NCBI GenBank assembly: GCA_016180645.1
Contig: JACPAV010000002.1
Location: 174,628-238,627, forward strand
Length of the DNA: 64,000 bases
Direction: 5' to 3'
Source of the DNA: Nitrospirota bacterium
GTDB lineage: Bacteria > JACPQY01
Below are positions 24,111 to 48,290 of this stretch, piece after piece. A program made the position numbers and the translations under genes. Each line of letters opens with the position of its first letter. Positions within the stretch are counted from its first letter, which is position 1. The notes beneath the pieces are model-generated. The model was given only the letters and a program-made list of their open reading frames with translations, had not been told where the DNA came from and searched no databases.

Positions 24111-25148
24111 TCATAGCCGGCGATACTCGACCATGAGGGCATCCACGATCTTGCGGGGGTGCCAGTGCTGAACCATGAACTCCCGCGAGTTCCTTCCGGT
24201 TTCCATGCGATGGTCCCCATCCGAGATCAGCCGCCCGAGCACGGTTTCAAGCTCGGCCGAATCCCCCGCGGCCAGCCAAGGCAGTGCATCGGTTCCCGCA
24301 AACCGCGCCGCCTCCGAGCGGGTCCTCTCCGCCAGACGGGCAATGGTGGGGGTGCCTTGGCTCAAAGCTTCGAGCGACGACACGCCGAAGTATCCCTGCA
24401 AATGATCGAAAAAGATGTGGCAGTTTCGCTTCCGCTCCAGGCACTCGGAGTGGGGGACGTTTTCAATGAGGTCGAGGTCCAGGAAACCGTTGTATCGGGC
24501 CTTGAGACCCGCGTAGACGCGCACCAGGAGTTCGGTGTCCTTGATCTCCTTCTTGGTCGGCGACTGACCGATTCTTACTCGTGACTCGTGAGTCGCGACT
24601 CGTGACTCGTGGGGAAGGTAGAGTGGATCGTCGATGGGAACGAGATTGGGTATCCACGTGGCCTCCGGAAGAAAATCCAAGAGGTCCGGCGTGCTGACCA
24701 GAAATGTTCTTCGAGAACTCTGCGCGCGGAATCGAGCCGGATCGGATCGAAGGGGCTCGCCATGTTGATGGTAGATCGCCCTTTTCCCCTTCATGAAATC
24801 CTTGGCCCTGAAAGGACCCAGAGGCGTTTCCTCATCGGCAAAGGCGTGAAAGTGAAAGAGATCGGCATCGCGGAGAACCTGTTCGATCTCCTCCACGTTC
24901 GAGGTTCGATGACCTCCACGAAGGGGGAAATGCCGCGGGAGGGCAGGAGCCCGGAGCGGCCGTTCGACATCCGACGATTCCGGAACATGGATGTCCTTCC
25001 TGTAGTTGAAGTTGTATTTGACGGCCGTGGTCACCAGACGGCAGGAATGTTCGGTGTGACGGTTGATCGCATCGGTGAAGGCGATCCCCATCCCGGCGGG
25101 ATCATTGGTGCAAATCATGAGGATGCGCATCCCAATTCCCCTCGGCAC
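24111..25148 (-). CDS. glycosyltransferase-like protein carrying an in-frame heptanucleotide repeat
   Basis: C-terminal SSLEALSQGTPTIA region resembles a GT-B donor-binding motif; contains HESRVATHESRV encoded by the tandem heptamer array. Confidence 0.5.
   Translation of the reverse strand: MPRGIGMRILMICTNDPAGMGIAFTDAINRHTEHSCRLVTTAVKYNFNYRKDIHVPESSDVERPLRAPALPRHFPLRGGHRTSNVEEIEQVLRDADLFHFHAFADEETPLGPFRAKDFMKGKRAIYHQHGEPLRSDPARFRAQSSRRTFLVSTPDLLDFLPEATWIPNLVPIDDPLYLPHESRVATHESRVRIGQSPTKKEIKDTELLVRVYAGLKARYNGFLDLDLIENVPHSECLERKRNCHIFFDHLQGYFGVSSLEALSQGTPTIARLAERTRSEAARFAGTDALPWLAAGDSAELETVLGRLISDGDHRMETGRNSREFMVQHWHPRKIVDALMVEYRRL
24577..24611. repeat. tandem heptanucleotide array (ACTCGTG x2, AGTCGCG, ACTCGTG x2) inside a coding region
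   Basis: Five adjacent 7-nt units read directly; central GAGTCGCGACTC is palindromic; encodes HESRVATHESRV in frame. Confidence 0.7.
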
Positions 25149-25152
25149 GTCC

Positions 25153-27099
25153 TCAGAGAAAGCGGCTCAGGCGGCTGAGGGCCTCCAGCGCCCGTTTCCC
25201 TTTCCACTGGTGGCCGCGCCAGATCTCGGGGACGAACCCCTCGTCGTAGTCTTTCAATTCGCCGAATACGGCTTCGAAGGGAATCTCACCCTCGCCGATT
25301 TGGACTCCCTCCCCATGCACGCCATGGGCGTCCGCCACGTGCAAGTGGCGAATGTAGGGCCTCACCGCGCGGACGAAAGAAACAATGTCCTTGCCGACGT
25401 GCTTGCAGTAGAGCTGGGCATGCGACGTATCCAAACAGATGTTGAACTTCGTTTCCGCGCAAAACGCGGCGATCTCTTCGGGATTCAGAAAAAGGTAGCC
25501 CGTCCATTGGCCCCCGAAATACCACGGAAAGGGCGGCAGGTTCTCGAGGAGGACTTCCACTCCGGTCGTGTCAAGCCGGCGGAGGGAGTCGATGAATCGG
25601 CCCGACATTCCATTCGCGCCGGGATATCCATTCAGACTCATCCCCCCCGGATGGAGGATCACTTTGGGCTTCGACCCGTGATTGAAGGAAGGACCCATCT
25701 TCCGAGCCATGTTGATCACGCGCTGAGCCACGGAAATCGAGCACTGGCGGGTGGCCATGTCTTTCGATGCCAGATCGAGAATGACGTCTCCGTCGTACTC
25801 GGGGGCATGAACGACAAGGTTCTGGGGAAATCGACCCGGGGGCGGCTCGATCTCCAAGTCGCGGTCCGTCATGTGGAATTCGAAGAGGTCGGGCTTGTAT
25901 TCGACAAACTTGTCCACGTCCGTCACCCGGACGATCAAGCCCCACTTCTTGGAGCTGACGGGGCGGGCCATCGGCGCCTCCGGCTCCCTCAGATCGTCCT
26001 CCACAAAAAGCTCACCCGCCATCATGTCCCGATGTGCGGTTCTCCCGATGAGCTGGTCGGCCAGATGGGGCGAGAGGCCTTTCCCCGGCCCCATGACGGT
26101 GATTTTGTCCTGCGTGATGACCTCGCCGATCTTGATATCGGCGGCGGCCACGAGGCTCTTGGCGAACAGCTCCCGATTGAGCTGTTCTCCCTGAGTCATT
26201 CGCTTGACGCCGGTGCCCAAGCACTCCTCCACAACGCGTATCCCATGAACCAAGCGGGCAAATTCATCTTTCTCGAGACTGACTTTGTGGTCGGGCCCCC
26301 ACGCCGTCCGATCATGCGTGAAATGTTTTTCGACAATCCGCGCGCCGCGCGCGACGGCGGCGAGTGAAACTTCGATCCCGCGGTCGTGCCCCGAGTAGCC
26401 TACGGTGACCCCGAACTTCTGGAGTTCATCCATGACTTTCAGATTCACTTCCCGGTAGAGGGCCGGATACAGGCTTACGCAATGGAGAATGGCGAATTCG
26501 GCTCTTTTCGATTTGAGGAAGTTCACCGTGCCTTCGATTTCCGGCATGAGCGACATCCCGGTGGAGAGAAGAAGCGGTTTCCCATGGGCGGACATTCTCG
26601 CCAGCAGCGGCCAATTGGTGAGATCCGCCGACGAGACCTTGAAGGCCTGCACCCCCAGTTGGGCGACAAAGTCCACGCTGGGCGGATCGAAGGCCGTGCA
26701 CAGAAGTTCGATTTCCAGCTCCCGACAGCGTTCGGCCAGCCGCGAGTAGGCTTCTTCATCCAGCTCCACCCGGCGGAGGATCGGGATCATGTACTGAAAG
26801 TGTCTCTCGTGCTGGATCACCTGCTCCAGCACGTCGGAGGTGTAAAGGGATTTCAGATCGCGCTTTTGGAACTTGACGGCATCGGCGCCTGCCGCCTTGG
26901 CGTCCTCAATCAGGCGAAGAGCAAGGTCCTCGCTCCCATTATGATTGATTCCTATTTCGGCGATGACGAAGGTTCGCTGCCCTTCGCCGATGAGCCGCCG
27001 GCCTATCCTAAGAGGATCCGGCACGCTCCGCTCCAGCCAAGGAAGGCGCGGTCCCTCACGCCATGGGGCCACGACGGCCCCGCGCCGACAGGCGCACAT
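25153..27099 (-). CDS. NeuB-family nonulosonate synthase fused to a C-terminal xylose-isomerase-like TIM-barrel domain
   Basis: N-terminal FVIAEIGINHNGS and SAF-like IKIGEVITQDKITVMGPGKG of NeuB-type synthases; C-terminal about 300 aa with LLENLP, DTSHA, HLHVAD, GEGEIPF resembling sugar-phosphate isomerase/epimerase TIM barrels; 648 aa. Confidence 0.65.
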   Translation of the reverse strand: MCACRRGAVVAPWREGPRLPWLERSVPDPLRIGRRLIGEGQRTFVIAEIGINHNGSEDLALRLIEDAKAAGADAVKFQKRDLKSLYTSDVLEQVIQHERHFQYMIPILRRVELDEEAYSRLAERCRELEIELLCTAFDPPSVDFVAQLGVQAFKVSSADLTNWPLLARMSAHGKPLLLSTGMSLMPEIEGTVNFLKSKRAEFAILHCVSLYPALYREVNLKVMDELQKFGVTVGYSGHDRGIEVSLAAVARGARIVEKHFTHDRTAWGPDHKVSLEKDEFARLVHGIRVVEECLGTGVKRMTQGEQLNRELFAKSLVAAADIKIGEVITQDKITVMGPGKGLSPHLADQLIGRTAHRDMMAGELFVEDDLREPEAPMARPVSSKKWGLIVRVTDVDKFVEYKPDLFEFHMTDRDLEIEPPPGRFPQNLVVHAPEYDGDVILDLASKDMATRQCSISVAQRVINMARKMGPSFNHGSKPKVILHPGGMSLNGYPGANGMSGRFIDSLRRLDTTGVEVLLENLPPFPWYFGGQWTGYLFLNPEEIAAFCAETKFNICLDTSHAQLYCKHVGKDIVSFVRAVRPYIRHLHVADAHGVHGEGVQIGEGEIPFEAVFGELKDYDEGFVPEIWRGHQWKGKRALEALSRLSRFL

Positions 27100-28120: not shown

Positions 28121-29983
28121 CTACGCGCGAGAGGAGCGCATGCTCTGCTGCAGTTCAAACAGGGCATGCTCAACCAGCCTTCCCATCAACGGGATGTCTC
28201 CCACAAGATTCACAAGGAATGCCTGCCCCGATTCCAGGTGCCGCGCAAGCTGCTCCGAGCCCGACGTTGATTCGCGCCAGGGCCGAAGAACCCGCCGGAC
28301 CAAGGGTTTCGCCACCGCTGAAATCAGCCTGGAGGGAGCCGCCCGATCGGCCACATCGCTGACGAAACTGCCGATCCGCAGCCTTCGTTCCTCCAAGATC
28401 GAGGCGGCGTCTCCATCCGCGGGCCGGCGCCCTATCTCCCCCCACCTCTCGAAGAGATCTCCCATCCGGGCTGAAAATGAGTGGAGTGCTGTTCTTTCTT
28501 CCACAAGGGAGTCGTACAGCCGGCACAGGCTCTCGCGATCCACGGGGGCATCCGCGAGAAAATTCCCGGAAAGATCTCCTCCATTCCAAGCGCTGTCCCG
28601 CGGCAATGCGGCGACCTCGGACCGCAATTCGTCCAGCGTCATCCGCACCGATCCTCCGGTCTCACCACCCGCCACATCACTCAACACGACTTTGAATCCC
28701 CCCCCCTGCCGGTAGCCCGCCCCCATCTCCAAAAGGAAGCGCCTATCCGCCAATCGGTCGTACGCGCTGGGATCGGAAGCATCGGCCGGGTCGAGGTCGA
28801 CCCAGAACGTGCGGTCAAACCATGCCCCGCAAAGAACCGCGGCATCCACGGGGGCGGAGAGACCGAGAGGAAGGTGGAGAGCAGTCGAATCACCCGACAC
28901 CACCCTCTCCATCCATGCGCCAAGATCATCCTGCGCGCGCGCATACACCACCGGTCGCTCAGGGGAATCTTTGAAGGCCAGGGGATCGGCGTCCAAGGGG
29001 AGCACGGCCAGCGCCGGGTCACGAGGGGAACGGGCATCCGCCCCGAAGCGCAAGCGCGGTTGGATTCCCGATGCCGTGCCGGACGTCGCCGTCCCCTCCG
29101 CTCCGCTCCACGGACGGCGAAATGAATTTTCATAGGGTCCTGTCGCCGCGACCACGGTTCGCGCTTCGATCGCTCCCATCAGATCCGCCGGAAGACGACC
29201 GGCGCAGCCGCTGTTCAACACCACCGCGTTCAGCCAGACCTGCCGATCGGGCCGGGGCTGGACCCCGCGGCCTTTCCACAGCCACGGCAGATTCTCGAGC
29301 GAGCGGAGCAGGATCCGACGGGATTCGGTTGCCGGGATTTCCACCTGTCGCCTGAACAGGGACAACCGGCAAGCCGCTCTGCCTTGGATTCTCGCCACCC
29401 TGTCGGTGAACGATTTTGCATAGCCGGGAAGAATCAACCACGAGACCCGGAGGCCGATCCGAAGTGAAGCGTCCATCGCCTTGTTGAAGTGGGGTTCATC
29501 GTGAACGAGTACCAACCGATCTGGCACAAAGAGGCTTCCGTAGTCAATCCGGCCCATGAGGTCGGCCAGCAGGGCTCGGTCCGGCTCATACAGGATGACC
29601 TTCGCGGAGGTCCGGTCCAGAAGTTCGCGCACGTGGTAGCCCAAGCCAAGACCCACCACGAGGACCAACTCCGCACCGGTATCCACCGCCGTCTGGACAA
29701 GTCCCTTGGCCTCGAGCACAGGATGGAAGGGGCTGTGGAGGAATTCGCTCTTGTACTTGAGCGTCGGCGGTCCGGCGCGGGAGGGCAGGATGTCAACCGC
29801 CCCGACTTCACCATCGCCAAGCTCCGGGATCGAACCTCGGACAACTCGGCGGAACGCTTCGGAGTTGCTCGCCCAGCGGAGCCGGCGACGCGGGGATCCG
29901 GTCGCCGTTCCGTTGACCGTCTCCGGCGCGGAGCCGCCGGGGAGGCGTTCAGCGAGCGGCAGGTTGCCGGCCGAGCGGCTCAT
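28121..29983 (-). CDS. Maf-like (motility-associated-factor / DUF115 type) putative nonulosonate transferase, paralog 2
   Basis: ELVLVVGLGLGYHVREL aligns with VDVVVMMGVGLGYDLKE of the adjacent paralog. Start uncertain: track start 30052 overlaps the upstream gene; ATG at about 29983 chosen. Confidence 0.4.
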   Translation of the reverse strand: MSRSAGNLPLAERLPGGSAPETVNGTATGSPRRRLRWASNSEAFRRVVRGSIPELGDGEVGAVDILPSRAGPPTLKYKSEFLHSPFHPVLEAKGLVQTAVDTGAELVLVVGLGLGYHVRELLDRTSAKVILYEPDRALLADLMGRIDYGSLFVPDRLVLVHDEPHFNKAMDASLRIGLRVSWLILPGYAKSFTDRVARIQGRAACRLSLFRRQVEIPATESRRILLRSLENLPWLWKGRGVQPRPDRQVWLNAVVLNSGCAGRLPADLMGAIEARTVVAATGPYENSFRRPWSGAEGTATSGTASGIQPRLRFGADARSPRDPALAVLPLDADPLAFKDSPERPVVYARAQDDLGAWMERVVSGDSTALHLPLGLSAPVDAAVLCGAWFDRTFWVDLDPADASDPSAYDRLADRRFLLEMGAGYRQGGGFKVVLSDVAGGETGGSVRMTLDELRSEVAALPRDSAWNGGDLSGNFLADAPVDRESLCRLYDSLVEERTALHSFSARMGDLFERWGEIGRRPADGDAASILEERRLRIGSFVSDVADRAAPSRLISAVAKPLVRRVLRPWRESTSGSEQLARHLESGQAFLVNLVGDIPLMGRLVEHALFELQQSMRSSRA

Positions 29984-31817
29984 TTTCCAGCGGGGTGTCC
30001 TCAATATCGGAAAGCGCCTCCTCGATTCGGGGCGCCAGGATCTCGCAGCCATCCACAGCCTGGGAGACCCACTCCTCCAGTCGTTTGAGCGTATCCTCGT
30101 AATGAACCGTCCGCCCTCCGGCGCATCCCCTGACGCACCACTCGGCCACCAGAGATTCTCCCATGACGTGGTAGTTGAGTAGGAAGCTGGACGAAACGTA
30201 GTCGGAGATGTCGTCCAAGAGCGCCTCCACGAGGGCCTGCTCGCCGAACATCCCCGCCAATCGATGAATCGTGGTCTCGCCGCTCCGGTACCGCTGGACG
30301 CGTTCCATCTGTTCTTCCAGCAGCGGCCTGAGTTCCCGCACCCGAAACGCTTCGGCGCGCAACAGCTCCCTCAGCGCTCTCAGCTTGTCTCCATGCAACA
30401 GCGGCGACATCGTCCGACGGAAAAAGGATTTGTCCACCTTCCGCCCGAGATATCGGGGAGCGGCCTCTTCGAGCGGAACGTGCTGGAACCCCTCAATCCA
30501 GACGCCGTCGCCGGTGGCGTTGACAAGTGTAATGCCCCGGGCCGACGTCCGGGCGGCCAATTCGAACCAGTTGACCGTTTTCTCGAACTGCCTCCACGTG
30601 AGCACTTCGCCGCCCTTGTATCCCTTCACGGTGGTGAACTGGGGATCATCCTTCAGCGCCTTCGGGGGGGGCAAGGCATGCTCTCTCGAAACGCCCCGGG
30701 CGTGGGTCCGCCCGCCGGGAAAGGAGAGATCCTGCCCGGCCATGAGAATCCGATCGCATCCGAGCCGCATGGCAAAGCTGAAAGCCGTGGTGGACACGGA
30801 ATAGGCATGCGGCAACACGGCGTTGAATCCCGTCAGGTTGAAAAGCGGACGCTCGAAGGGGCTGGAGGATTCGACGTACAACCAGATCCGCGTGAGCGGG
30901 AGGTCGAACAACTTGGGGCACACCTTGAGGGGGAAGATCGCGGAAAGGGTTTCCGGAAGGTCCACCTCATCGAAGAAATCCGTCACATCGATCGCCTCAT
31001 CGCTGAAGACAAAGTCCGGGACCACTCCAGACCGTAGGAGGGGTTTGAGAGACGCATCCGTGGCCAGGAGGATCGCGCGTTCCTGCACCTCCTTCAAAAG
31101 CGGCAGATGACCGGCGAGGGACGGTCCCGCACCGATGATGATGGCCGGCAACCCCATCCCGCTCCCCTCCAATGCGGCCGCCATCGGGTATTCGACGACC
31201 CGATGGAGATTCAGGAGGTTGGTCCCCACCCATTCCCGTGCGCGGTTCTTCCAAATGCCGAGGCACATCCTCGAATTCTCGATGTCCACCGTGAAATTGG
31301 CGACAAGTTCCCGCACCTGCTCGGGGAAGAGGATCTCGTGCGCGGCGCCCACGAAAATTCTTCCCTCCAGCCCCAGCCGGAACCAGACGCGGAACGCCAG
31401 GGCCAATTCCTCCGATTTGCGGGTCAGGAACACGCGGTCCTGACGGAAGAGGTCCGAAAAGTCGTGGATCATCAGCGCGACTTTCAACAGGGGGAGTTCC
31501 GGTTCGAGAATGAGCAGGTCCTTTCCGGTCTCCCTCGATGCCTCCTTCAAATCGTAGCCGAGGCCGACTCCCATCATGACCACAACATCCACTCCCTCGC
31601 TCCTGAAGGCCATCCAGCGGGCCCGGGCCTCGGCCCCCGGATGTTCACGGCTGTGGAGAAGCACTCCCTTCCACGAGAGCGTCCACTGCCCGTTCGCGCT
31701 CTCCTCCAGGAGATGCAGCGGTGCTTCAGCTTCCTCAAGCTCCGCGGCCAGCTCCGGAAAGCGGGGCCGGAGGGCCGCCAGGTTCTTGTGAAGGCGCTCG
31801 AGGCTGGGCTTAAGCAT
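29949..31817 (-). CDS. Maf-like (motility-associated-factor / DUF115 type) putative nonulosonate transferase, paralog 1
   Basis: LPAIIIGAGPSLAGHL (GxGPSL) motif characteristic of Maf/MptE-like glycosyltransferases. Start set to ATG (MLKPSLERL) at 31817. Confidence 0.55.
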   Translation of the reverse strand: MLKPSLERLHKNLAALRPRFPELAAELEEAEAPLHLLEESANGQWTLSWKGVLLHSREHPGAEARARWMAFRSEGVDVVVMMGVGLGYDLKEASRETGKDLLILEPELPLLKVALMIHDFSDLFRQDRVFLTRKSEELALAFRVWFRLGLEGRIFVGAAHEILFPEQVRELVANFTVDIENSRMCLGIWKNRAREWVGTNLLNLHRVVEYPMAAALEGSGMGLPAIIIGAGPSLAGHLPLLKEVQERAILLATDASLKPLLRSGVVPDFVFSDEAIDVTDFFDEVDLPETLSAIFPLKVCPKLFDLPLTRIWLYVESSSPFERPLFNLTGFNAVLPHAYSVSTTAFSFAMRLGCDRILMAGQDLSFPGGRTHARGVSREHALPPPKALKDDPQFTTVKGYKGGEVLTWRQFEKTVNWFELAARTSARGITLVNATGDGVWIEGFQHVPLEEAAPRYLGRKVDKSFFRRTMSPLLHGDKLRALRELLRAEAFRVRELRPLLEEQMERVQRYRSGETTIHRLAGMFGEQALVEALLDDISDYVSSSFLLNYHVMGESLVAEWCVRGCAGGRTVHYEDTLKRLEEWVSQAVDGCEILAPRIEEALSDIEDTPLENEPLGRQPAAR

Positions 31818-32877
31818 ATCCGCCGCCCCTGAAGAGGGAGGCCTCCTTGAGAACGTCGCGCCATTGGGCGACGAAGCGGTCCATGGAAAACTGACTCTCA
31901 ACCGTCCGGCGCGCCTCCCCTCCCATCCTCGCCGCCTCTTCGGAAGAGTCGAGCAACTCGCGGAGGCGAGATCGTAGCGCGCCGACGTCCGACGTAATGT
32001 ATCCATTCACGCCGTTCCTGATCGGCGAGGACGTATTCCACGTCGAGAGGACCGGCGTGCCCGCGGCCATGGCCTCCAACATGCAAAGCGTGTACCCGTC
32101 CTCCAGCCCCTCCACGGTCGTGTTCACGAACAGACGCGCGCTTCGATAAATATCCTTCAGTTCATCGAACGACGAGGCCGATTCACTTTTCACGCCCTGG
32201 TCGTTATCCCCCACCACGCGGAGCGGAAATCCGTCGCAAATGGCCAGGAGGTCCCGCAGGCCCTCTTTCGCGCGGGAAAGGCCGTTGCACACCCTCAGCG
32301 CGCTCGCCACTTCGCCCGTGTGGTCGGGAAAATCGGAAATGTCGATGCCGTGCACAATCACGCGCGAGGGGCATCGCAGCCCCCAGTTCTTCCGCTTGAA
32401 CTCCGAGATAAAAACAAAGAAGACATTTCCGGATTTCAGGAAAAGCCTCTGCAGAGATCTCAGGAATTCCCGCTTCCGGAGGGCCTGGCCGAGAAGGTCC
32501 GTTTCGGAATAGGGGAACGCATTATGGAACACGAGCACTTTCCCGGAAGGGCTCGCGATGCACGCCAGGAGATCCTCCACATCGTGGCAAACGATCGCAT
32601 CATAGTAGGCGTCTCGGCTCCGTTCCTTCATGTCGCTCTCGGAGATCAGCCGGGCGTTGGGAGGAAGCGGGCGAAGTCGGGGATTCCACGCGCGCACGTA
32701 GCCCAAGCTGGGAATGTGCCGTTCGCAGATATCGAATTCGTGTCCCGTCCTTGCGAGGTTGCACAGATACGGTTCGTGCCGGCAGAAGGTCAGTATCCGG
32801 AGGGTTCGACGCGAGGCCCCGATGACGTTTCCATTCGTCGTCCCGGAAGCGAAGCGGAGGGGGCGCGTCGTACCCAT
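31810..32877 (-). CDS. glycosyltransferase, GT4-like
   Basis: CMLEAMAAGTPVLST motif. Start set to ATG (MGTTRPL) at 32877, adjacent to the upstream stop. Confidence 0.6.
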   Translation of the reverse strand: MGTTRPLRFASGTTNGNVIGASRRTLRILTFCRHEPYLCNLARTGHEFDICERHIPSLGYVRAWNPRLRPLPPNARLISESDMKERSRDAYYDAIVCHDVEDLLACIASPSGKVLVFHNAFPYSETDLLGQALRKREFLRSLQRLFLKSGNVFFVFISEFKRKNWGLRCPSRVIVHGIDISDFPDHTGEVASALRVCNGLSRAKEGLRDLLAICDGFPLRVVGDNDQGVKSESASSFDELKDIYRSARLFVNTTVEGLEDGYTLCMLEAMAAGTPVLSTWNTSSPIRNGVNGYITSDVGALRSRLRELLDSSEEAARMGGEARRTVESQFSMDRFVAQWRDVLKEASLFRGGGYA

Positions 32878-37209: not shown

Positions 37210-37250
37210 TTCCGCGGTCCGGTGGTGACACCAGCCACAGGAAGGGCTGA

Positions 37251-37313
37251 GTGCCGAGTGCCGAGTGCCGAGTTTCTCGGACTCAGGACTCGGGACTCGG
37301 GACTCGGGACTTT
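37251..37313. repeat. twin heptanucleotide tandem arrays: (GTGCCGA)x3 and (GGACTCG)x4 flanking GTTTCTC
   Basis: Read directly; immediately downstream of the PIG-L stop. The two arrays are imperfect inverted copies of each other. Confidence 0.7.
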
Positions 37314-37319
37314 CGTTGC

Positions 37320-38003
37320 TCACTGTTCGATGCTCCTCACCAGCACGAATGCCTCTGCCGCGCCCAGCCCACAGTGGATGCCCCACTTCTTCGCATAAAC
37401 ACGCAACGATTCCGGCGACCGGGGATGGCCGTTGGCGCCGACCTCGCCCCGGTACTGCAAGAAGGCGTGAATCTTGGTTTCCAAAGTCCGGGAAATATCG
37501 CTGAAGGCGTTCGGCGTGAACGTGTTCTGCGCCCCGTAGATGTTCCACTCGGTCGAAGAGGGCGTTTCAAACGCGAAGATCCTTCTTACGGTTTCCCCGT
37601 GAATCGGCCGGAAGGCGGTCAACACAGCCTGATAGGTAATGCGGTGGTCCACGTTCAGGTCTCCCCAGAAATGGGTGTAGACGACTTCAGGGCGAAACTG
37701 TTTCTTGATCCGTTCAATGGTCTTGACCATGTCGAGGAGAGACATCGTATCGAAACGATTGTCGGGCAGGCCGAGGAAATGCACCCGCTCCACCCCCAGA
37801 ATGTCCGCGCTCCGGCGGCAGTACGTTCGAAGCGCCGAGACCAGCCGCTTGGGTGCGTGTTCCCGTCGTTCGAATCGCGCCGTGGCGCCTTCTCCCAGGA
37901 TGACCGTGTGGATCCGGTGCCCCTTGCGGGCCAGGCGGGCCATGGTGCCGCCGCAGCCAAGCACTTCATCATCCGGATGGGCGGCAACGACCAATACATT
38001 CAT
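37320..38003 (-). CDS. PIG-L/LmbE family N-acetyl-sugar deacetylase
   Basis: MNVLVVAAHPDDEVLGCGGT with the HPDDE zinc-binding motif; ATGA overlap with upstream gene; 227 aa. Confidence 0.7.
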   Translation of the reverse strand: MNVLVVAAHPDDEVLGCGGTMARLARKGHRIHTVILGEGATARFERREHAPKRLVSALRTYCRRSADILGVERVHFLGLPDNRFDTMSLLDMVKTIERIKKQFRPEVVYTHFWGDLNVDHRITYQAVLTAFRPIHGETVRRIFAFETPSSTEWNIYGAQNTFTPNAFSDISRTLETKIHAFLQYRGEVGANGHPRSPESLRVYAKKWGIHCGLGAAEAFVLVRSIEQ

Positions 38004-38752
38004 GCGGACACTCCCGATCGGATGATTTCCAGCGCCCGCGGACCCTCGTTGAGCATCAGATCGATGACAGACATGTTCGGAATGAAGGGATCGAAGCCTT
38101 GCCGATACGTAGGGTGCTGATAGTCTTGAAAAATAACCGCAATTTTCTCCCTATTGAAGGCCTCAAGGTCCATGTAGAGCCGTCCATGGGTACCCGCGTA
38201 GTATGTATCAGCTTGGAAATGCTTGCAGATCGAGACAAGCCGATGTGTGGCTAGTTCCTTTACATTCAATCGGTCGGTTGGACCGATTGAATCGGTCGAT
38301 CGGACCGATTCGATCGATCGATCGGTCAGTCTCAAGTCTGAACTCCTATACGTTCGAGGGGTAAGATTCATGCATCGAGAGACAACCTCGATAGACTTGA
38401 GACAGAGCAGGGACAGGTTCGAGCCTGACTCGGCGTAGATCGAACCGATGGGGGCTTCATACTCGGAGTAGAACGGGGCCTTCCTGTAGTTTGACTCGAT
38501 CGCTTTCAGGTGCTTCCGCCGCCAGGGCGAGCGCTCGTCCGTTTGGGTTTCGTTGATGGTTTGTCCGAAGTGGTGCTGGACCGGCACGGTGAGCCATTGC
38601 CATCCCTCGGCCGTGCGGATCTTGTTCCGGTTCTGCCAATCGTTCTTCGTGTATTGCACATCGTCGAGAAACACGAACACATCGGCACGGTCCATCTTCT
38701 CGAAATACCCGAGCCACGGGAGGTACTGCGGCTGGTGGATGGAGACGATCAT
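38000..38752 (-). CDS. WbqC-like family protein, paralog 1
   Basis: MIVSIHQPQYLPWLGYFEKMDRADVFVFLDDVQY matches the WbqC-like N-terminus. Start set to ATG at 38752 (ATGA overlap); carries an about 19-aa in-frame insertion relative to paralog 2. Confidence 0.65.
   Translation of the reverse strand: MIVSIHQPQYLPWLGYFEKMDRADVFVFLDDVQYTKNDWQNRNKIRTAEGWQWLTVPVQHHFGQTINETQTDERSPWRRKHLKAIESNYRKAPFYSEYEAPIGSIYAESGSNLSLLCLKSIEVVSRCMNLTPRTYRSSDLRLTDRSIESVRSTDSIGPTDRLNVKELATHRLVSICKHFQADTYYAGTHGRLYMDLEAFNREKIAVIFQDYQHPTYRQGFDPFIPNMSVIDLMLNEGPRALEIIRSGVSA
38265..38330. repeat. array of alternating-orientation 8-mers GACCGATT/AATCGGTC forming overlapping perfect palindromes, in frame inside WbqC-like paralog 1
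   Basis: CAATCGGTC-GGTTG-GACCGATTG, GACCGATT-G-AATCGGTC, AATCGGTC-GATCG-GACCGATT and GACCGA-TCGATCGATCGA-TCGGTC read directly; encodes TDRSIESVRSTDSIGPTDR. Confidence 0.7.
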
Positions 38753-40122
38753 GGGAGTGGCAAGTGGTGAGTGGCGAACGGCGAGTCGAGGGGGCCACGG
38801 CTCGGTTCTTTTGGCCCTTCGCTCGTCGCTCCTCGCTCGCTCCTCGTTGCTCGTTGCTCGTTGCTCGTTGCTGTCATGGCGTCCACCAACGCGCACACCC
38901 GGTCCGTGGCGCGTCCGTCGTTCAAGGCATTGAGGGTCAGGAGATCCGCCTCTCTCAACATCTCCTCCTCCATCGTCCTCGGTGCGCGAAGGGCCTCCAT
39001 GGTTTTCCGAAAGACCTCTTCCTCAGTGCGCGCTTTGAGGATCGAGGCCGCATCATTGAAGATCGTCTCCGGCACATGGAGCGAGAGCGACATAACCCGG
39101 GCGCCGTAGATCAGCGCCTCGACGGCCATCGTCGATTGAAAGCAAATCACCACGTCCGACGCCCTGAGCAGCGGCGCCAGCGCGGGCGCCAAGGAAAGGT
39201 GTCGCGGGTAGGTCGAGTGGACCCGGAGACCCTCGGCTTGAGCCAGCGCCTCATACTCTTTGTCCGCATAGGGATCGGAGGGATGGGGTTTCAAAACCAA
39301 CTGGAAGGCCCGGGCCTTTTGGGCCCGAGCGAGCGCGCGGAACGTATCGGCCATGACGTCTCCCGGCCGATAGGAATGCTCCCGGAGGTACAGACCGCTC
39401 CGCCACGTGGTGGCCAGACACACCACGGGGAGACCGCTCTGCAGCCCGATCTCGCGCAACGCCCTCGACTTCTCCCATTCGCCGCGGAGGCGGTAGTGCA
39501 GGTCCATGACGACCGATCCCGTGACGGCCAATCGATCTTCCGCCACGCCCGCCCGCCGGTACCAATTCCGGCAGCGCTCCCCGAACACAGACATGATGTC
39601 CGCATACACACGGTCATGCAGATTGGCCAGTCCGGGCAGCCCATGCGCGAGGCAGAGGCTGGGAACGCCATAGGCCCTCGCCAATTGAATCGCCACCCGC
39701 TGGAGGGGCCGGACGTCGTTGTCCACCATCAGCAGGCCCAATCCGCCCTCGACCGCCATTCTCTTGACGGCCACCGCAATGCCCAGCATCTGGCGGCTCA
39801 GGTTGGAGAACCGTGGCGCGAGACTCTCGTAGATTTTCACATCGGCGTATCCCCGCTCGGACAAGGCCGCCTCGAAGCCCATCGCCAAGCGGGCGCAGTC
39901 CTCCGGACTCTTCTCCAGGACGTAGCGGTCGATCGCCGCCAAGTCGCCCGGATCGAACAACGTCTCCAGGGAGGCCACGCTCCCCCCCCCCGATTTCCGG
40001 ATGAAATCGTAGGTCGTCGGGTTCACCACGAGGTCGTGCCGGGATGCCAATCTCCGGCAGAGGTGCTCATACCTCTGGTTCAGCAGCGCGAGAATTCGGA
40101 CCGGCACGTCAGGACCCTCCAT
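38749..40122 (-). CDS. TagF-like (CDP-glycerol glycerophosphotransferase-type, HP motif) putative transferase, paralog 1
   Basis: VVCLATTWRSG (PTWR-like) and QLVLKPHPSDP motifs; 457 aa. The C-terminal about 45 aa is encoded by heptamer arrays and may not be native; G10 tract near 5-prime end. Confidence 0.5.
   Translation of the reverse strand: MEGPDVPVRILALLNQRYEHLCRRLASRHDLVVNPTTYDFIRKSGGGSVASLETLFDPGDLAAIDRYVLEKSPEDCARLAMGFEAALSERGYADVKIYESLAPRFSNLSRQMLGIAVAVKRMAVEGGLGLLMVDNDVRPLQRVAIQLARAYGVPSLCLAHGLPGLANLHDRVYADIMSVFGERCRNWYRRAGVAEDRLAVTGSVVMDLHYRLRGEWEKSRALREIGLQSGLPVVCLATTWRSGLYLREHSYRPGDVMADTFRALARAQKARAFQLVLKPHPSDPYADKEYEALAQAEGLRVHSTYPRHLSLAPALAPLLRASDVVICFQSTMAVEALIYGARVMSLSLHVPETIFNDAASILKARTEEEVFRKTMEALRAPRTMEEEMLREADLLTLNALNDGRATDRVCALVDAMTATSNEQRATRSERGATSEGPKEPSRGPLDSPFATHHLPLP
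38755..38873. repeat. two heptanucleotide arrays (GAGTGGC-like x3-4 and GCTCGTT x4 exact plus degenerate copies) at the TagF-like/WbqC junction
   Basis: GCTCGTTGCTCGTTGCTCGTTGCTCGTT read directly at about 38847-38873; degenerate units extend upstream to about 38821; second array at about 38755-38790 directly upstream of the WbqC ATG. Confidence 0.7.
39982..39991. repeat. homopolymeric C10 tract (G10 on coding strand) in the 5-prime region of TagF-like paralog 1
   Basis: Read directly; encodes the GGG of IRKSGGGSVAS. Confidence 0.6.
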
Positions 40123-40351
40123 CCGGCGGGGAGAAGCGCGCCCCCAACTTCTCCATCGTCAACATGAAGATCTCGTACTCCAAGGCCCCCGCGAAGCTCT
40201 CCCCATCCCAGCGAAGGATGTCTTCCGCGGCTTCGCTCGCGCTCCATTCCGACAGCGCCGCGAGGACCTCCTGGTCGGTATGGCAGAGTTCACACACGGT
40301 GCCGTTCAGGCGCGACCCTCCAAGACCGCAGCGTTCGCACCTATCCTGCAT
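40109..40351 (-). CDS. small zinc-ribbon protein, paralog A
   Basis: MQDRCERCGLGGSRLNGTVCELC with two CxxC knuckles; 80 aa; lies between WbqC-like paralog 2 and TagF-like paralog 1. Confidence 0.4.
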   Translation of the reverse strand: MQDRCERCGLGGSRLNGTVCELCHTDQEVLAALSEWSASEAAEDILRWDGESFAGALEYEIFMLTMEKLGARFSPPDGGS

Positions 40352-41117
40352 GGCCTGCCGCCTCCCATGCGCTCTGCGTCGGGGCCCGACGCGCCTCAGA
40401 AGCCCGAAATGCGGGCCTCCGACCGGAACGAAGGATCTCCAGGCTCGCGGGACCGCAGTTCAGGAGCAGGTCCACCGCCGAGAGGTGTGAAACGAAGCCC
40501 TCGAATCGTTGGGGATAGACGGGGTGATCGTAGTGGTGGAAGCGCAATCGGACCCCCGAGTCCGAAAAGATTTCGGAATGTTGAAGATACGCTCGCGCGC
40601 CAAGCGGGGAGAGGTACTCATCCGCCCCCAGGCTCTCGCAAATGGAGACAAGGTAGTCCACCCGGTCCACTTGCTCCACGTCCAACTCGGAAGCCCGGAT
40701 GAACGGCGTGCGAATTCCCAACCGCGCCGCCAGCGCTTCCACAAGCGGAATCGTCACCTCCACCAAGCGGTCTTCCTCCGACCGTGCAAGCAGCGTGGAG
40801 AGAAGGGCATCGCCATGATCCCTCCACGACTCCGCGCGGCGATAGGCAACTTCGATCGATCGCGCGTGCCGGCGGATCCATTTCCCCTGAACGATCCTCG
40901 CCTCGCGGAGGGATTGGCCCAGCGGGTCCTTCCGCGTGAGCGGCAGCGTCAGCCAGCACCAGCCTTGGTCGGTTCGGATGCGGTTCCGGTGATGCCACGA
41001 ATGCCGCACGCGCTGCACCGTGTCCAGAAACACGAAGGTGTCGACCTGGTCGATCATGTCGAAATATCCAAGCCAGGGCAGGTAGTGCGGTTGGATGATG
41101 GCCACCGTCTTTCTCAT
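40341..41117 (-). CDS. WbqC-like family protein, paralog 2
   Basis: MRKTVAIIQPHYLPWLGYFDMIDQVDTFVFLDTVQ; start set to ATG at 41117. Confidence 0.65.
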   Translation of the reverse strand: MRKTVAIIQPHYLPWLGYFDMIDQVDTFVFLDTVQRVRHSWHHRNRIRTDQGWCWLTLPLTRKDPLGQSLREARIVQGKWIRRHARSIEVAYRRAESWRDHGDALLSTLLARSEEDRLVEVTIPLVEALAARLGIRTPFIRASELDVEQVDRVDYLVSICESLGADEYLSPLGARAYLQHSEIFSDSGVRLRFHHYDHPVYPQRFEGFVSHLSAVDLLLNCGPASLEILRSGRRPAFRASEARRAPTQSAWEAAGHAG

Positions 41118-41154
41118 CACCCGGCTCCCCTGTCGCATGACACCTGACGCATGA

Positions 41155-41844
41155 CTATTTTCGCCCCTCCACCAGCCAGTCCGAATCGGTCCGACCCGGC
41201 GCGCTTCCCACCTTCGCATATCCGATAAACCGCTGACGAAACCCGGCCGTCAGCGCATCGACGGCCGCCGCGTCGACAAACGTCACCGACATCCCCTCCT
41301 CACCGGTCTCGTTCGAATTCATGAGAAAGCAATGGGGAGCCAGCTCCCGCCCCCGCCCGTATCGGGAGTCATCCGTTCCCCGCAACGAGAAGAAGGCCCA
41401 CCCCCCCGGTTTCAAGAGTCGACGAATTTCCATGATGCCCGCGGCGGTCTCCTCGGGCCTGCCGTAGTAGAGGACGCCATAGCAGATGACCGCATCGAAG
41501 GCGTCCGACTTGAGAGGCACGTCCAGGAAGGTGCCCACGGCCAGCCGCCCGGGACTCCTCTCCGTTCGGATGCATCGGCGCAGGGAACGTCTCGCTCCAT
41601 CGATCCCGACGACGTCGAATCCTTCTCTTTTCAGCATCACGAGGTGCCGTCCTCCGCCGCATCCGAGGTCCAGAACGCGCTTCGGCCGCCGACGATTCCA
41701 AGAGCGAACGAGCCTCCGAGATACGAACCGGACGACATGATCGACAGGGTAGCGGGGGACCTTGTCGAGATTCTCCCGCGCGTAGAAGATTTCCCAGGGA
41801 GTGCCGGTGTTGTTCCTCTCTTGAACCGGTGTGGCGATCCCCAT
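41155..41844 (-). CDS. class I SAM-dependent methyltransferase
   Basis: RVLDLGCGGGRH motif I and DAVICYGVLYY; start set to ATG (MGIATPV) at 41844. Confidence 0.6.
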   Translation of the reverse strand: MGIATPVQERNNTGTPWEIFYARENLDKVPRYPVDHVVRFVSRRLVRSWNRRRPKRVLDLGCGGGRHLVMLKREGFDVVGIDGARRSLRRCIRTERSPGRLAVGTFLDVPLKSDAFDAVICYGVLYYGRPEETAAGIMEIRRLLKPGGWAFFSLRGTDDSRYGRGRELAPHCFLMNSNETGEEGMSVTFVDAAAVDALTAGFRQRFIGYAKVGSAPGRTDSDWLVEGRK

Positions 41845-46224: not shown

Positions 46225-47277
46225 TCACTCCAAATCCGAGAGATGAACCAAGTCGTCCGGAAGAATGGCGCGTCTCGATCGTCGCCCGATCACCTTGCCC
46301 ACCTCCGAGGGGGAAAGTCCCGTTCCCGGACGCTTCAACGCGATCATGTCGCGGCCGATGACCATCCCCGGATCGATGGCCACGCGAGCGACAATGCTTC
46401 GCCGGCAGAGTTTCTTCATGTCCTGCTCCTCCGGACCGGGAGCGATGCGGCCTCCGCCGAGCATAAGTTCGGTTTGGCGTACCGCCTTGACCAAGGCCCG
46501 CAGCTCCGACGGATCGCAGGAGAAGGCGTGGTCCGGCCCGGCGAGCGACTTGTCCAGTGTGAAATGCTTCTCGATCATCACCGCGCCCAGGGCCGTGGCG
46601 AGGCGCGCCGCCTCGATGCCTTCCGTATGGTCCGAATAACCGACCGGGTAGGGAAAGAGCCGTCGCAGGCCGGAGATCCTTCGCATGTTGCAGGCCAGGT
46701 CGGGCGTGGGGTAGAGGGACACGCAGTGAAGGAGGACGATCTGCGAATTGCGGCTCGAACGCACGGCGCGGATGGCGTCGCGGATCTCCGCTTCGGAAGC
46801 CATGCCCGTCGAAAGGATCATGGGCAGCCTGAACCGGGCCAGATCCTTGAGGAGGGGGAGATTCGTCAGATCGTCCGATCCGACTTTGACGCACGGAACC
46901 TCCGTTTCAATCAGGGCTTCGACGGCATCCACGCTCGAAGGCGTGGAGAAAAACAGGACCCCCGCATGATCCGCCTCCGCCTTCAGGTCCGCCAGAAGCG
47001 GCAATGGAAGCTCATACCGGCGGAACATCTCGCGCATGGATTCAGTGATGGTGTTTCCCTTGGACACATACGTGTAGGTCGTGCCGCCATCCCCCACGAA
47101 ATCGTCCGCAAAAAAAGTCTGAAACTTTACCGCATCGACTCCACACTCCGCAGCTGTGCGGATCATCGCTTTGGCGGTTTCGGGGTCACCGTTGTGGTTG
47201 ATGCCGACCTCGGCCACGATGAGCGTCGGCTGCCCGCGGCCGATCAGCCGGTTCCCCAGCGCCACAGTGGTCTTCAT
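46225..47277 (-). CDS. pseI: NeuB-family nonulosonate (pseudaminic-acid-type) synthase
   Basis: LIVAEVGINHNGD and SAF-like domain; start set to ATG (MKTTVALG) at 47277 overlapping the PseB stop (ATGA). Confidence 0.7.
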   Translation of the reverse strand: MKTTVALGNRLIGRGQPTLIVAEVGINHNGDPETAKAMIRTAAECGVDAVKFQTFFADDFVGDGGTTYTYVSKGNTITESMREMFRRYELPLPLLADLKAEADHAGVLFFSTPSSVDAVEALIETEVPCVKVGSDDLTNLPLLKDLARFRLPMILSTGMASEAEIRDAIRAVRSSRNSQIVLLHCVSLYPTPDLACNMRRISGLRRLFPYPVGYSDHTEGIEAARLATALGAVMIEKHFTLDKSLAGPDHAFSCDPSELRALVKAVRQTELMLGGGRIAPGPEEQDMKKLCRRSIVARVAIDPGMVIGRDMIALKRPGTGLSPSEVGKVIGRRSRRAILPDDLVHLSDLE

Positions 47278-48290
47278 GTCACCCGTGCCTCCATTTCCAC
47301 GTTCTGACTCTTCCCGTTTGCGCGGGAGGCCACGAAAGTTTTCATCTCCTCCGCCTTCAGCCACCACTCATTGGTGTTGCTCGCATAACGGAAATCGTCG
47401 GGCAGCAGCCGCCCCTCGCGGGTTCGCTCCGGGTTCCACCATGGGAACTCCGGCTCTACCACGAAGTAGGAATCAAACTCGCGGGCGTGGCGGGCTTCAT
47501 CCTCGGTGAGAAGCACTTCGTGAAGTTTCTCGCCGGGGCGGACCCCCACTTCGGAAATTTGGGCTTCGGGCGCCACGCTGCGCGCCAGGTCAAGCACCTG
47601 CATGCTTGGAATTTTCGGCACAAAGATTTCCCCGCCCTTCATCCGTTCCAGGCATTCAAGGACGAATTGCGCGGCGCGGTCCAACGTGATCCAGAACCGC
47701 GTCATGCGCCGGTCCGTGATCGTCAAGACCCCCTTCATCCTTTGCAGTAGGAATAACGGGAGAACGCTTCCACGACTGCCAACCACGTTCCCATACCGGA
47801 CAACGGAAAACCGCGTTCCCCCCTGCCCGCCGTACGAGTTCCCTTGGATGAAGATTTTCTCCAGACAAAGTTTCGTCGCGCCGTAGAGATTCACCGGGTT
47901 GACCGCCTTGTCCGTGCTCAGGGCCACCACTTTCTTTACGCCACAATCGATGGCGGCCTCCATGACGTTCTCGGCGCCGAGGATGTTCGTCTTGACGGCC
48001 TCGAAAGGGTTGTATTCGCAAGCGGGGACCTGCTTGAGGGCGGCGGCGTGAATCACGAAGTCCACCCCCTCCATGGCGCGACGCAGCCGGTCCACGTCGC
48101 GGACATCTCCGAGCAGGAACCGCAGGGCCGGATGAGCCAGCTGCCGTCCCATGTCGTGTTGTTTGAGCTCGTCCCGGCTGAGGATGCGAACGGCCTTGGG
48201 AGGACCCGCCCTCAGGAGGAGTTGGGCAAACTCCCTTCCGAAGGAACCCGTTCCCCCGGTCACGAGAAAAGTGGTGTCATCCAGATTCAT
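47274..48290 (-). CDS. pseB: UDP-N-acetylglucosamine 4,6-dehydratase (inverting), PseB/FlaA1 family
   Basis: FLVTGGTGSFG, SRDELKQ, HAAALKQVPACEYNP, YGATKLC, TDRRMTRFWITLD, GGEIFVPKIPSM all match the PseB/FlaA1 family; 338 aa. Confidence 0.85.
   Translation of the reverse strand: MNLDDTTFLVTGGTGSFGREFAQLLLRAGPPKAVRILSRDELKQHDMGRQLAHPALRFLLGDVRDVDRLRRAMEGVDFVIHAAALKQVPACEYNPFEAVKTNILGAENVMEAAIDCGVKKVVALSTDKAVNPVNLYGATKLCLEKIFIQGNSYGGQGGTRFSVVRYGNVVGSRGSVLPLFLLQRMKGVLTITDRRMTRFWITLDRAAQFVLECLERMKGGEIFVPKIPSMQVLDLARSVAPEAQISEVGVRPGEKLHEVLLTEDEARHAREFDSYFVVEPEFPWWNPERTREGRLLPDDFRYASNTNEWWLKAEEMKTFVASRANGKSQNVEMEARVT

What the first reader, a model, noticed from the sequence alone, without database searches (positions are those of the whole stretch)
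38265..38330. Palindromic 8-mer array inserted in frame in one WbqC-like paralog but absent from the other
The segment is built from alternating-orientation copies of GACCGATT/AATCGGTC forming several overlapping perfect palindromes. It translates in frame as TDRSIESVRSTDSIGPTDR and corresponds to an about 19-residue insertion relative to the second WbqC-like paralog. This looks like a small palindromic element tolerated as an in-frame insertion. It could promote recombination, form cruciform or RNA structures, or act as a protein-binding site inside the gene.
Basis: seen in the sequence. Interest (0 to 1): 0.6.

Follow-up and report, generated by a model that had tools for sequence, protein, structure and literature searches.

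The report
In-frame hairpin repeat inside WbqC gene
A sugar-modification gene of an uncultured Nitrospirae bacterium carries a real 66-base insertion made of three copies of a 22-base hairpin-forming unit, which adds a floppy 22-residue surface loop; it looks like a local repeat expansion, not a mobile element, and is a minor curiosity.

Summary
Window 38264-38329 holds three tandem 22-nt units (73-86% alike). Each unit is a near-palindrome, AATCGGTC-N5-GACCGATT. The array lies in frame in a WbqC-family gene on the minus strand (38000-38752).

It adds exactly 22 residues, not about 19. They fall in a segment that is 15-17 residues long in 118 of 119 close homologues and in the window's paralogue. 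Removing the 66 nt restores the canonical 15 residues.

Four independent assemblies carry the identical array, so it is not an assembly artefact. In the AlphaFold2 model the insert is the only low-confidence stretch.

Of two syntenic orthologues, one has no insert. The other has an unrelated-looking 12-residue insert at the same codon. More distant family members also lengthen this loop, so the site is permissive.

The "palindromic element" reading is not supported:
- the 8-mer is not enriched outside the array;
- the window holds no other copy, even at up to 3 mismatches;
- no donor sequence was found;
- scans of genome, metagenome, viral, plasmid and phage collections found no family.

The best explanation is hairpin-assisted local tandem expansion in a tolerant loop, kept because three copies preserve the frame. 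The whole source genome could not be reached, so a low-copy family is not excluded. Interest is low.

The parts
38264..38329 (-). 66-nt in-frame insertion: three tandem 22-nt quasi-palindromic units. It encodes LTDRSIESVRSTDSIGPTDRLN (residues 142-163 of the 250-aa protein).
   Evidence: TRF period 22, score 89. The repeat finder family D1. Deleting exactly these 66 nt restores the canonical 15-residue segment SSDLRVKELATHRLV. Protein alignments A1 and A4.
38264..38285 (.). Unit 1 (+ strand: ATTCAATCGGTCGGTTGGACCG).
   Evidence: reference copy.
38286..38307 (.). Unit 2 (ATTGAATCGGTCGATCGGACCG), 86% identical to unit 1.
38308..38329 (.). Unit 3 (ATTCGATCGATCGATCGGTCAG), 73% identical to unit 1. 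It contains a (TCGA)3 tract at 38310-38321.
   Evidence: TRF period-4 row at 38291-38324. Sequence read.
38265..38291 (.). Perfect hairpin 1: 11-bp stem TTCAATCGGTC/GACCGATTGAA with the 5-nt loop GGTTG.
   Evidence: Perfect-stem scan. DNA and RNA folds.
38289..38311 (.). Perfect hairpin 2: 9-bp stem GAATCGGTC/GACCGATTC with the 5-nt loop GATCG. The alternative pairing 38281-38297 (GACCGATT-G-AATCGGTC) bridges units 1 and 2.
38000..38752 (-). Host gene: WbqC-family protein of 250 aa. It is intact and keeps all family-invariant residues. Its ATG overlaps the stop of the upstream ORF, and its stop overlaps the ATG of the PIG-L gene.
   Evidence: Pfam PF08889, E = 2.9e-76. Homologue search and alignment. 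AlphaFold2 pLDDT 92.2.
40341..41219 (-). Second WbqC-family paralogue (about 36% identical), without the insert.
   Evidence: Pfam PF08889, E = 3.5e-65. Alignment A1.
37320..38003 (-). Downstream, translationally coupled PIG-L-family deacetylase gene. It served as the handle for finding independent assemblies.
   Evidence: Pfam. Exact-protein look-up.

Best explanation
The 66 nt are a lineage-specific, locally generated repeat expansion inside a permissive, disordered loop of an otherwise intact WbqC-family enzyme.

Proposed origin (inferred). A 21/22-nt hairpin-forming unit (AATCGGTC-N5-GACCGATT plus one base) was multiplied head to tail. In a tandem array of a palindromic unit each arm can pair with either neighbour, which favours slipped or hairpin intermediates during replication. 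The unit length is 22, so only a total of three units (66 nt = 22 codons) keeps the reading frame, and that is the state selection has let through. The three copies are read in three different frames. This gives the low-complexity peptide TDRS-IESVRS-TDSIGP-TDRL.

Proposed consequence (inferred). The insert probably has no dedicated function at the DNA, RNA or protein level. It is a tolerated loop extension.

Shown: the array, its frame, its absence from homologues, its position in the only low-confidence part of the model, and its reproducibility across assemblies.

Inferred: the slippage/hairpin origin and the neutrality.
For: 1. Exact anatomy. The array is three 22-nt units, 73-86% alike, each with an inverted 8-mer pair. 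Precise removal yields the family-standard 15-residue segment.
2. The site is permissive.
   - The segment is 15-17 aa in 118 of 119 close homologues. The syntenic orthologue P0002 has a different 12-aa insert that starts at the very same codon (gene nt 426), and P0001 has none.
   - In 148 more diverse representatives, 11 have 19-31 aa here.
3. Structure. The AlphaFold2 model has pLDDT 92.2 overall. Only blocks 141-150 (68) and 151-160 (55) are low, which corresponds to the insert.
4. The gene is alive. It has a full-length Pfam match, keeps all invariant columns, and sits in conserved synteny and operon overlap with its neighbours.
5. No sign of a repeated family or donor.
   - The window has no second copy at up to 3 mismatches and no 8-mer enrichment outside the array.
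   - The longest match elsewhere in the window or in related loci is 13 nt.
   - Public scans found no family.
6. The lineage is prone to short tandem arrays. Heptanucleotide arrays flank this very gene in the window and in orthologous locus L005, with different units.
7. A perfect triplication of unit 1 or of unit 3 would contain an in-frame stop, whereas the actual unit-to-unit differences keep the frame open. This is consistent with selection on the ORF.
Against: - The units are only 73-86% identical. The expansion is therefore not recent, and ongoing slippage would be inefficient.
- No seed copy of the unit is visible in the flanks or in the orthologues. Stepwise growth by one unit would pass through frameshifted null alleles. 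So the 66 nt arose in one event, or the gene survived null intermediates, or an older in-frame insert was remodelled (22 + 8 nt = 30 nt more than P0002's 36 nt). None of these was shown.
- Similarity between the window's insert and P0002's insert is weak: 66 of 2000 shuffles and 9% of random 36-mers score as well.
- Only about 70 kb of the source genome could be examined, so a low-copy dispersed family cannot be ruled out.
Confidence: 0.62

Rival explanations
1. It is a copy, or three copies, of a small mobile or dispersed palindromic element (REP/REPIN- or MITE-like, analogous to Rickettsia palindromic elements) that landed in frame in the gene.
For: - The units are 21-nt palindromes of REP-like size and sit next to each other like REP doublets.
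- In-frame survival of palindromic elements inside genes is documented for RPEs and for intragenic REPs (PMC10969869; PMC3733652).
- A 4-nt direct repeat TTGA lies 66 nt apart at the borders. This was read and is at chance level.
- No seed sequence exists in the orthologues.
Against: - There is no other copy in 64 kb at up to 3 mismatches.
- The 8-mer occurs at chance frequency outside the array.
- There is none in about 6 kb of extra sequence from the same organism or in related loci.
- The array pattern has a single, unrelated hit in 596 Gb of genomes and none in viral or metagenome contigs.
- The single hairpin pattern gives 7 isolated hits in unrelated contigs with GC from 40 to 70%.
- There is no GTAG or CGTC tag (read against PMC3733652).
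- The 66 nt is shorter than RPEs, which are about 150 bp.
Confidence: 0.12
2. It is a contingency (phase-variation) switch. Gain or loss of one 22-nt unit or one TCGA turns the WbqC gene off and on in a surface-glycan or flagellin-glycosylation island.
For: - Unit lengths of 22 and 4 are not multiples of 3.
- Simulated changes of one unit or one TCGA, up or down, give stops at codons 155-189.
- The gene lies in a nonulosonic-acid / Maf glycosylation cluster. By my own knowledge, this kind of locus is phase-variable in Campylobacter.
- The lineage is rich in heptanucleotide arrays at gene junctions.
Against: - Four assemblies from four sequencing runs show the identical three-unit allele.
- The units are only 73-86% alike and the TCGA tract has only three copies, both poor substrates for frequent slippage.
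- The orthologues lack the array.
Confidence: 0.1
3. The palindromes are a functional cis-element inside the gene. They could be two adjacent 21-bp operators two helical turns apart for a dimeric regulator, or an mRNA hairpin that tunes translation or stability of the WbqC/PIG-L message.
For: - There are two perfect palindromes with centres 22 bp apart.
- The predicted hairpins are strong in both DNA and RNA.
- Isolated TCAATCGGTC-N4-6-GACCGATTGA hairpins in other metagenome contigs look intergenic. This is my reading of the flanks and was not checked with an ORF list.
Against: - The array is absent from both syntenic orthologues, which have the same operon layout.
- There is no promoter-like site nearby.
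- Rfam gives only sub-threshold hairpin matches.
- There is no conservation to analyse.
Confidence: 0.05
4. It is an assembly or sequencing artefact, such as a chimeric or fold-back read.
For: Palindromic repeats are a known source of artefacts (my own knowledge).
Against: The sequence is identical in the window and in three independent Logan assemblies of different runs. The frame is preserved and the ORF is intact.
Confidence: 0.01

Closest known systems
Lineage-specific indels and intragenic short tandem repeats in surface loops of enzymes (slipped-strand or hairpin-mediated duplication)
   Same: The array is tandem and head to tail. It sits in a poorly ordered loop whose length varies in the family. 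The host protein is otherwise intact, and related sequences differ in length at the same site.
   Different: The unit length (22 nt) is not a multiple of three, so the three copies are read in three frames. The unit is itself a palindrome. No seed copy is visible in the orthologues.
Rickettsia palindromic elements (RPE) and other MITEs inserted in frame in genes (PMC10969869)
   Same: It is palindromic DNA tolerated as an in-frame addition to an enzyme, at a place compatible with the fold.
   Different: RPEs are about 150 bp, belong to multi-copy families and encode a conserved peptide. Here there are 66 nt, no second copy was found, and no family exists in public data.
REP / REPIN elements (PMC3733652)
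   Same: The palindromes are of 20-40 bp size. Neighbouring units can fold into larger structures. A few REPs are known inside genes.
   Different: There is no GTAG or CGTC tag, no high copy number in the 64 kb examined, and the location is intragenic. The presence of a RAYT transposase gene was not examined genome-wide.
[quoted passage not shown]
   Same: They are intragenic tandem repeats whose coding DNA has dyad symmetry.
   Different: PARCEL units are 25 residues (75 nt), amphipathic, variable in number, and found in ORFs without assigned function that are often membrane-targeted. Here the unit is 22 nt, there are three copies, and the host is a cytoplasmic-type enzyme.
Simple-sequence contingency loci in glycan genes (for example tetranucleotide repeats or homopolymer tracts in LOS, capsule or flagellin-glycosylation genes; my own knowledge)
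   Same: The repeat unit is not divisible by three, lies inside an ORF of a surface-glycan cluster, and a copy change would switch the gene off.
   Different: The copies are few and diverged, and no length variation was seen in four assemblies.

Membership tests
WbqC-like protein family (PF08889), host gene | Full-length match to the Pfam model above its gathering score | tested here: met
   E = 2.9e-76, 256.6 bits against a cut-off of 21.3, model positions 1-217 of 218. The paralogue scores E = 3.5e-65.
REP / REPIN | Short (20-40 bp) imperfect palindrome | tested here: met
   21-nt units AATCGGTC-N5-GACCGATT, with perfect stems of 9-11 bp.
REP / REPIN | Many dispersed copies in the same genome | tested here: not met
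   No other copy at up to 3 mismatches in the 64-kb window. None in extra loci of the same organism.
REP / REPIN | Unpaired GTAG or CGTC tag at one end (PMC3733652) | tested here: not met
   Neither GTAG/CTAC nor CGTC/GACG occurs in 38264-38329 (sequence).
REP / REPIN | Associated RAYT (Y1) transposase in the genome | not tested
   About 30 of the larger ORFs in the window were scanned against Pfam, and none matched a transposase family. The rest of the genome was unavailable.
MITE / RPE | Terminal inverted repeats plus a target-site duplication | tested here: inconclusive
   The whole array is palindromic, so terminal inverted repeats are trivially present. The only flanking direct repeat is TTGA, 4 nt at 66-nt offset, and I estimate about a 5% chance of this arising by chance (read).
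MITE / RPE | Multi-copy family with a conserved sequence or peptide | tested here: not met
   No copy in the window, in related loci, or in the genome, metagenome, viral, plasmid or phage scans.
Contingency locus (phase-variable simple-sequence repeat) | A change in copy number shifts the reading frame | tested here: met
   In silico, a change of one 22-nt unit or one TCGA, up or down, gives premature stops at codons 155-189.
Contingency locus (phase-variable simple-sequence repeat) | Observed length polymorphism among cells or strains | tested here: not met
   Four assemblies from four runs are identical.
Contingency locus (phase-variable simple-sequence repeat) | Long tract of near-identical units | tested here: not met
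   There are three units at 73-86% identity and a (TCGA)3 tract.
PARCEL | 25-residue amphipathic unit in variable-number tandem arrays | tested here: not met
   The unit is 22 nt (7.33 codons), with three copies read in three frames.

The most novel reading that the evidence does not exclude
The 22-nt palindromic unit could be a very small self-propagating or hairpin-templated insertion module that can persist in genes only as frame-preserving triplets. Alternatively, it could be a hairpin-based on/off switch for a glycan-modification gene in an uncultured Nitrospirae. The coincidence that a second orthologue has a different insert starting at exactly the same codon would then mark a targeted insertion site and not merely a permissive loop.
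Probability: 0.07. Interest if true: 0.55.

Novelty: new member of a known kind. Interest (0 to 1): 0.2.

Why it matters
Taken as the best explanation, it matters little. It is one more example of a tolerated, repeat-generated loop insertion in an enzyme.

It is a tidy illustration of two points:
- A repeat whose unit is not divisible by three can survive in a gene only in multiples of three.
- A palindromic unit gives similar peptides in several frames.

It would matter more in two cases. If the complete genome showed further copies, this would be a new very small in-frame-tolerated element outside Rickettsia. If reads showed copy-number switching, it would be the first contingency locus of this sort in Nitrospirae glycan genes.

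The heptanucleotide arrays at gene junctions in this lineage, noticed in passing, may be the more interesting lead.

Tried and rejected
- **Assembly artefact.** Rejected, because three independent Logan assemblies are identical.
- **Dispersed family within the window.** Rejected on 8-mer counts, the 21-mer with 3 mismatches, a perfect-stem hairpin scan, and blastn-short of the insert and each unit against the masked window and all loci. The longest match was 13 nt.
- **Family in public data.**
  - The array pattern hit one genome record. That hit (L001, a Thermoanaerobaculia MAG) is an intergenic array of 11.4 direct 22-nt repeats (AATCGGTCGTCGTCTTATTCGC). It shares little beyond the 8-mer the pattern demanded, and I treat it as selected by the search.
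  - The array pattern hit no viral contig and no metagenome contig.
  - The single-hairpin pattern gave 7 isolated sites in unrelated metagenome contigs.
  - BLAST against plasmids and phages gave nothing below E = 0.2.
- **Known RNA.** Rfam gave only sub-threshold miRNA-precursor matches (25 bits against gathering scores of 89-90). These are what any hairpin gives.
- **Internal promoter.** No promoter-like site.
- **Homology between the window's insert and the insert of orthologue P0002.** The best local alignment is GATCGAATCGGTCCGA / GACCGAATC-GCCCGA. It is reached by 3% of shuffles and by 9% of random 36-mers of that locus, so it is not convincing.
- **'PTDRL' inside the insert as a duplicate of the native motif.** PTDRL equals the family consensus at the start of the following helix. 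However, the native copy here is ATHRL, which is shared with P0002, and the DNA identity is no more than the shared amino acids require. I left this as a coincidence of the repeat.
- **Degenerate (TCGA)n microsatellite.** Rejected as the main description, because the 22-nt period (85% matches) is out of phase with a 4-nt period.
- **Reaching the source MAG.** Exact-protein look-ups for the 250-aa and 298-aa versions of the WbqC gene and for the upstream 457-aa ORF found nothing on record.
- **Solved structures.** There is no sequence match in the PDB. Foldseek against the PDB had a best E of 0.019 and a TM-score of about 0.3, so there is no usable structural relative.

Full report
**What is there**

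The finding lies in a gene on the minus strand. Window 38000-38752 encodes a 250-residue protein that matches Pfam WbqC (PF08889) over the whole model (E = 2.9e-76).

On the + strand, 38264-38329 reads ATTCAATCGGTCGGTTGGACCG / ATTGAATCGGTCGATCGGACCG / ATTCGATCGATCGATCGGTCAG. Tandem Repeats Finder calls a 22-nt unit x2.8 with 85% matches and score 89.

Each unit carries the inverted pair AATCGGTC-N5-GACCGATT. As a result the array contains:
- perfect hairpins with 11-bp and 9-bp stems, at 38265-38291 and 38289-38311;
- a bridging palindrome at 38281-38297;
- a (TCGA)3 tract in the third unit.

The paired arrangement never occurs in 100 dinucleotide shuffles. The region folds far better than shuffles as DNA (z = -3.9) and as mRNA (z = -2.9).

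**It is an insertion, and exactly 22 codons long**

I aligned the protein with its window paralogue (40341-41219, also PF08889) and with 119 homologues. The segment from the conserved 'SS.L' to 'RL[IV]' is:
- 15-17 residues in 118 homologues;
- 27 residues in one homologue (P0002);
- 37 residues here.

Deleting precisely the three 22-nt units gives SSDLRVKELATHRLV, which is the canonical 15 residues. Because 22 is not divisible by three, the three copies are read in three frames (TDRS.IESVRS.TDSIGP.TDRL). Any change of one unit or one TCGA produces a stop within about 50 codons.

**It is not an artefact**

The source is a MAG labelled 'Nitrospirae bacterium', because a UbiB-type kinase of the window is 100% identical to an NCBI protein of that name. 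The WbqC protein itself is not in the protein collection. However, exact look-ups with the neighbouring PIG-L protein and with a 111-residue fragment retrieved Logan assemblies of three different runs: SRR12113425, SRR12113385 and SRR12113390. All three carry the array base for base.

**Orthologues**

Two more distant relatives, P0001 and P0002 (59% and 57% identical by BLASTP), sit in the same gene order: DegT, methyltransferase, WbqC paralogue, small ORF, 430-aa ORF, WbqC, PIG-L, 913-aa protein.
- P0001 has no insert.
- P0002 has a 12-residue, proline-rich insert (PETESPEAPPGT) that begins at exactly the same codon.

Its DNA shows only a weak resemblance to the window's insert (p about 0.03-0.09). 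A shared ancient insert is therefore possible but unproven.

In 148 more diverse family representatives, 11 have 19-31 residues in this segment. The site accepts extra residues in several lineages, and the window's insert is the longest seen.

**Structure**

The AlphaFold2 model built from 120 sequences is confident (mean pLDDT 92.2, pTM 0.89). The only weak blocks are residues 141-150 (68) and 151-160 (55), which is the insert. The insert lies between a strand (133-136) and the conserved helix that starts with ATHRL. All family-invariant residues are retained. The gene therefore looks functional, and the insert looks like a floppy loop.

**Is it an 'element'?**

- Outside the array the 8-mer occurs 6 times against about 4 expected in the whole window.
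- The 21-nt palindrome has no second copy, even with 3 mismatches.
- blastn-short of the insert against the masked window and all related loci finds nothing longer than 13 nt.
- A pattern requiring three alternating 8-mers hit one record in 596 Gb of genomes. That hit is an intergenic direct-repeat array in a Thermoanaerobaculia MAG, which I regard as selected by the pattern. The same pattern hit nothing in viral or metagenome contigs.
- A single-hairpin pattern hit seven isolated sites in unrelated metagenome contigs.
- Plasmid and phage BLAST gave nothing below E = 0.2.
- The units lack the GTAG/CGTC tag of REPs (PMC3733652) and are much shorter than Rickettsia palindromic elements (PMC10969869).

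The caveat is that only about 70 kb of the source genome was accessible.

**Most likely mechanism**

I favour a local expansion of a hairpin-forming 22-nt unit in a permissive loop. Hairpin or slipped intermediates would assist it, and selection would filter for an open frame.

Three lines of support:
- the exactness of the 3 x 22 = 66 nt insert;
- the permissive site;
- the abundance of other short tandem arrays (heptanucleotides) right around this gene in the window and in orthologous locus L005.

In addition, a perfect triplication of unit 1 or of unit 3 would carry an in-frame stop, whereas the actual differences avoid it. This is only a weak argument, because 12 of the 27 possible unit orders are open.

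Against it:
- the copies are 14-27% diverged;
- no seed copy is visible;
- one-unit steps would be null alleles.

The origin may therefore have been a single event, a passage through null intermediates, or a remodelled older insert. These steps are inferred, not shown.

**Rivals**

- A dispersed palindromic element (about 0.12) needs copies elsewhere.
- A contingency switch (about 0.10) fits the context, a nonulosonic-acid/Maf glycosylation island, and the frameshift logic. However, four assemblies show no length variation, and the repeats are few and diverged.
- A cis-regulatory operator or mRNA hairpin (about 0.05) has no support from conservation or from the promoter scan.
- An artefact is excluded.

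**Verdict**

This is a real and neatly structured feature, but an ordinary one: a new instance of a repeat-generated, in-frame loop insertion. Interest is 0.2.

Noticed in passing
window 24577-24611, 37249-37273, 37279-37311, 38755-38786, 38819-38872, 55092-55121; L005 1-26, 1280-1373, 2747-2782, 2805-2827, 5890-5919: There are tandem arrays of 3.3-8 heptanucleotide units, most of them at gene junctions, in this Nitrospirae lineage. The unit sequences differ from site to site and between orthologous loci. GCAACGA occurs before the WbqC gene in the window but after the PIG-L gene in L005. L002 has almost none. Logan contigs L006 and L007 break in the AGCAACG array. The pattern resembles the heptamer repeats reported in cyanobacteria (STRR; my own knowledge), Beggiatoaceae (PMC4679880) and Geobacter (PMC2700814). 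I found no paper linking such repeats to Nitrospirae.
   Followed up: partly
window 38749-38900 (minus strand): The upstream 457-aa ORF reads straight through two heptamer arrays, which give it a C-terminal tail (TSNEQRATRSERGATSEG...) that ends on the WbqC start codon (ATGA overlap). The orthologues are 430 aa (L002, no arrays) and 441 aa (L005, different arrays). Repeat arrays therefore appear to be absorbed into coding sequence here as well.
   Followed up: partly
L001 5822-6072 (DASWNW010000017.1, Thermoanaerobaculia MAG): There is an intergenic array of 11.4 direct 22-nt repeats (AATCGGTCGTCGTCTTATTCGC) between two divergently oriented ORFs. Its period is iteron-like. It is probably unrelated to the window's array, with which it shares the 8-mer and the 22-nt period.
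   Followed up: partly
L002 6424-6462 (also L003, L004): The syntenic orthologue P0002 carries a different, proline-rich 12-residue insert (PETESPEAPPGT) that starts at exactly the same codon as the window's insert. It comes from the same set of samples, and the two populations co-occur in SRR12113385 and SRR12113390.
   Followed up: yes
window 38000-38752: The WbqC gene has a lower G+C content (54%, GC3 69%) than most of its neighbours (60-64%, GC3 69-80%). The same offset is seen in both orthologous loci.
   Followed up: partly
window 25153-27099 (minus strand): A 648-aa ORF fuses NeuB and SAF domains to a xylose-isomerase-like TIM barrel (AP_endonuc_2). A second, ordinary NeuB gene lies at 46225-47367. 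The window is a large nonulosonic-acid / Maf (29949-32006) glycosylation island.
   Followed up: no
model ma32b33bd9d60 (window 38000-38752): The WbqC family has no solved relative. There is no PDB sequence match. The best Foldseek PDB hit has E = 0.019 and a TM-score of about 0.3, to PIG-L-type deacetylases and TyrRS-like Rossmann folds. The AlphaFold2 model is nevertheless very confident.
   Followed up: partly
P0241 (494 aa; no locus fetched): The best hit in the representative library is a protein made of two WbqC domains in tandem (sequence).
   Followed up: no
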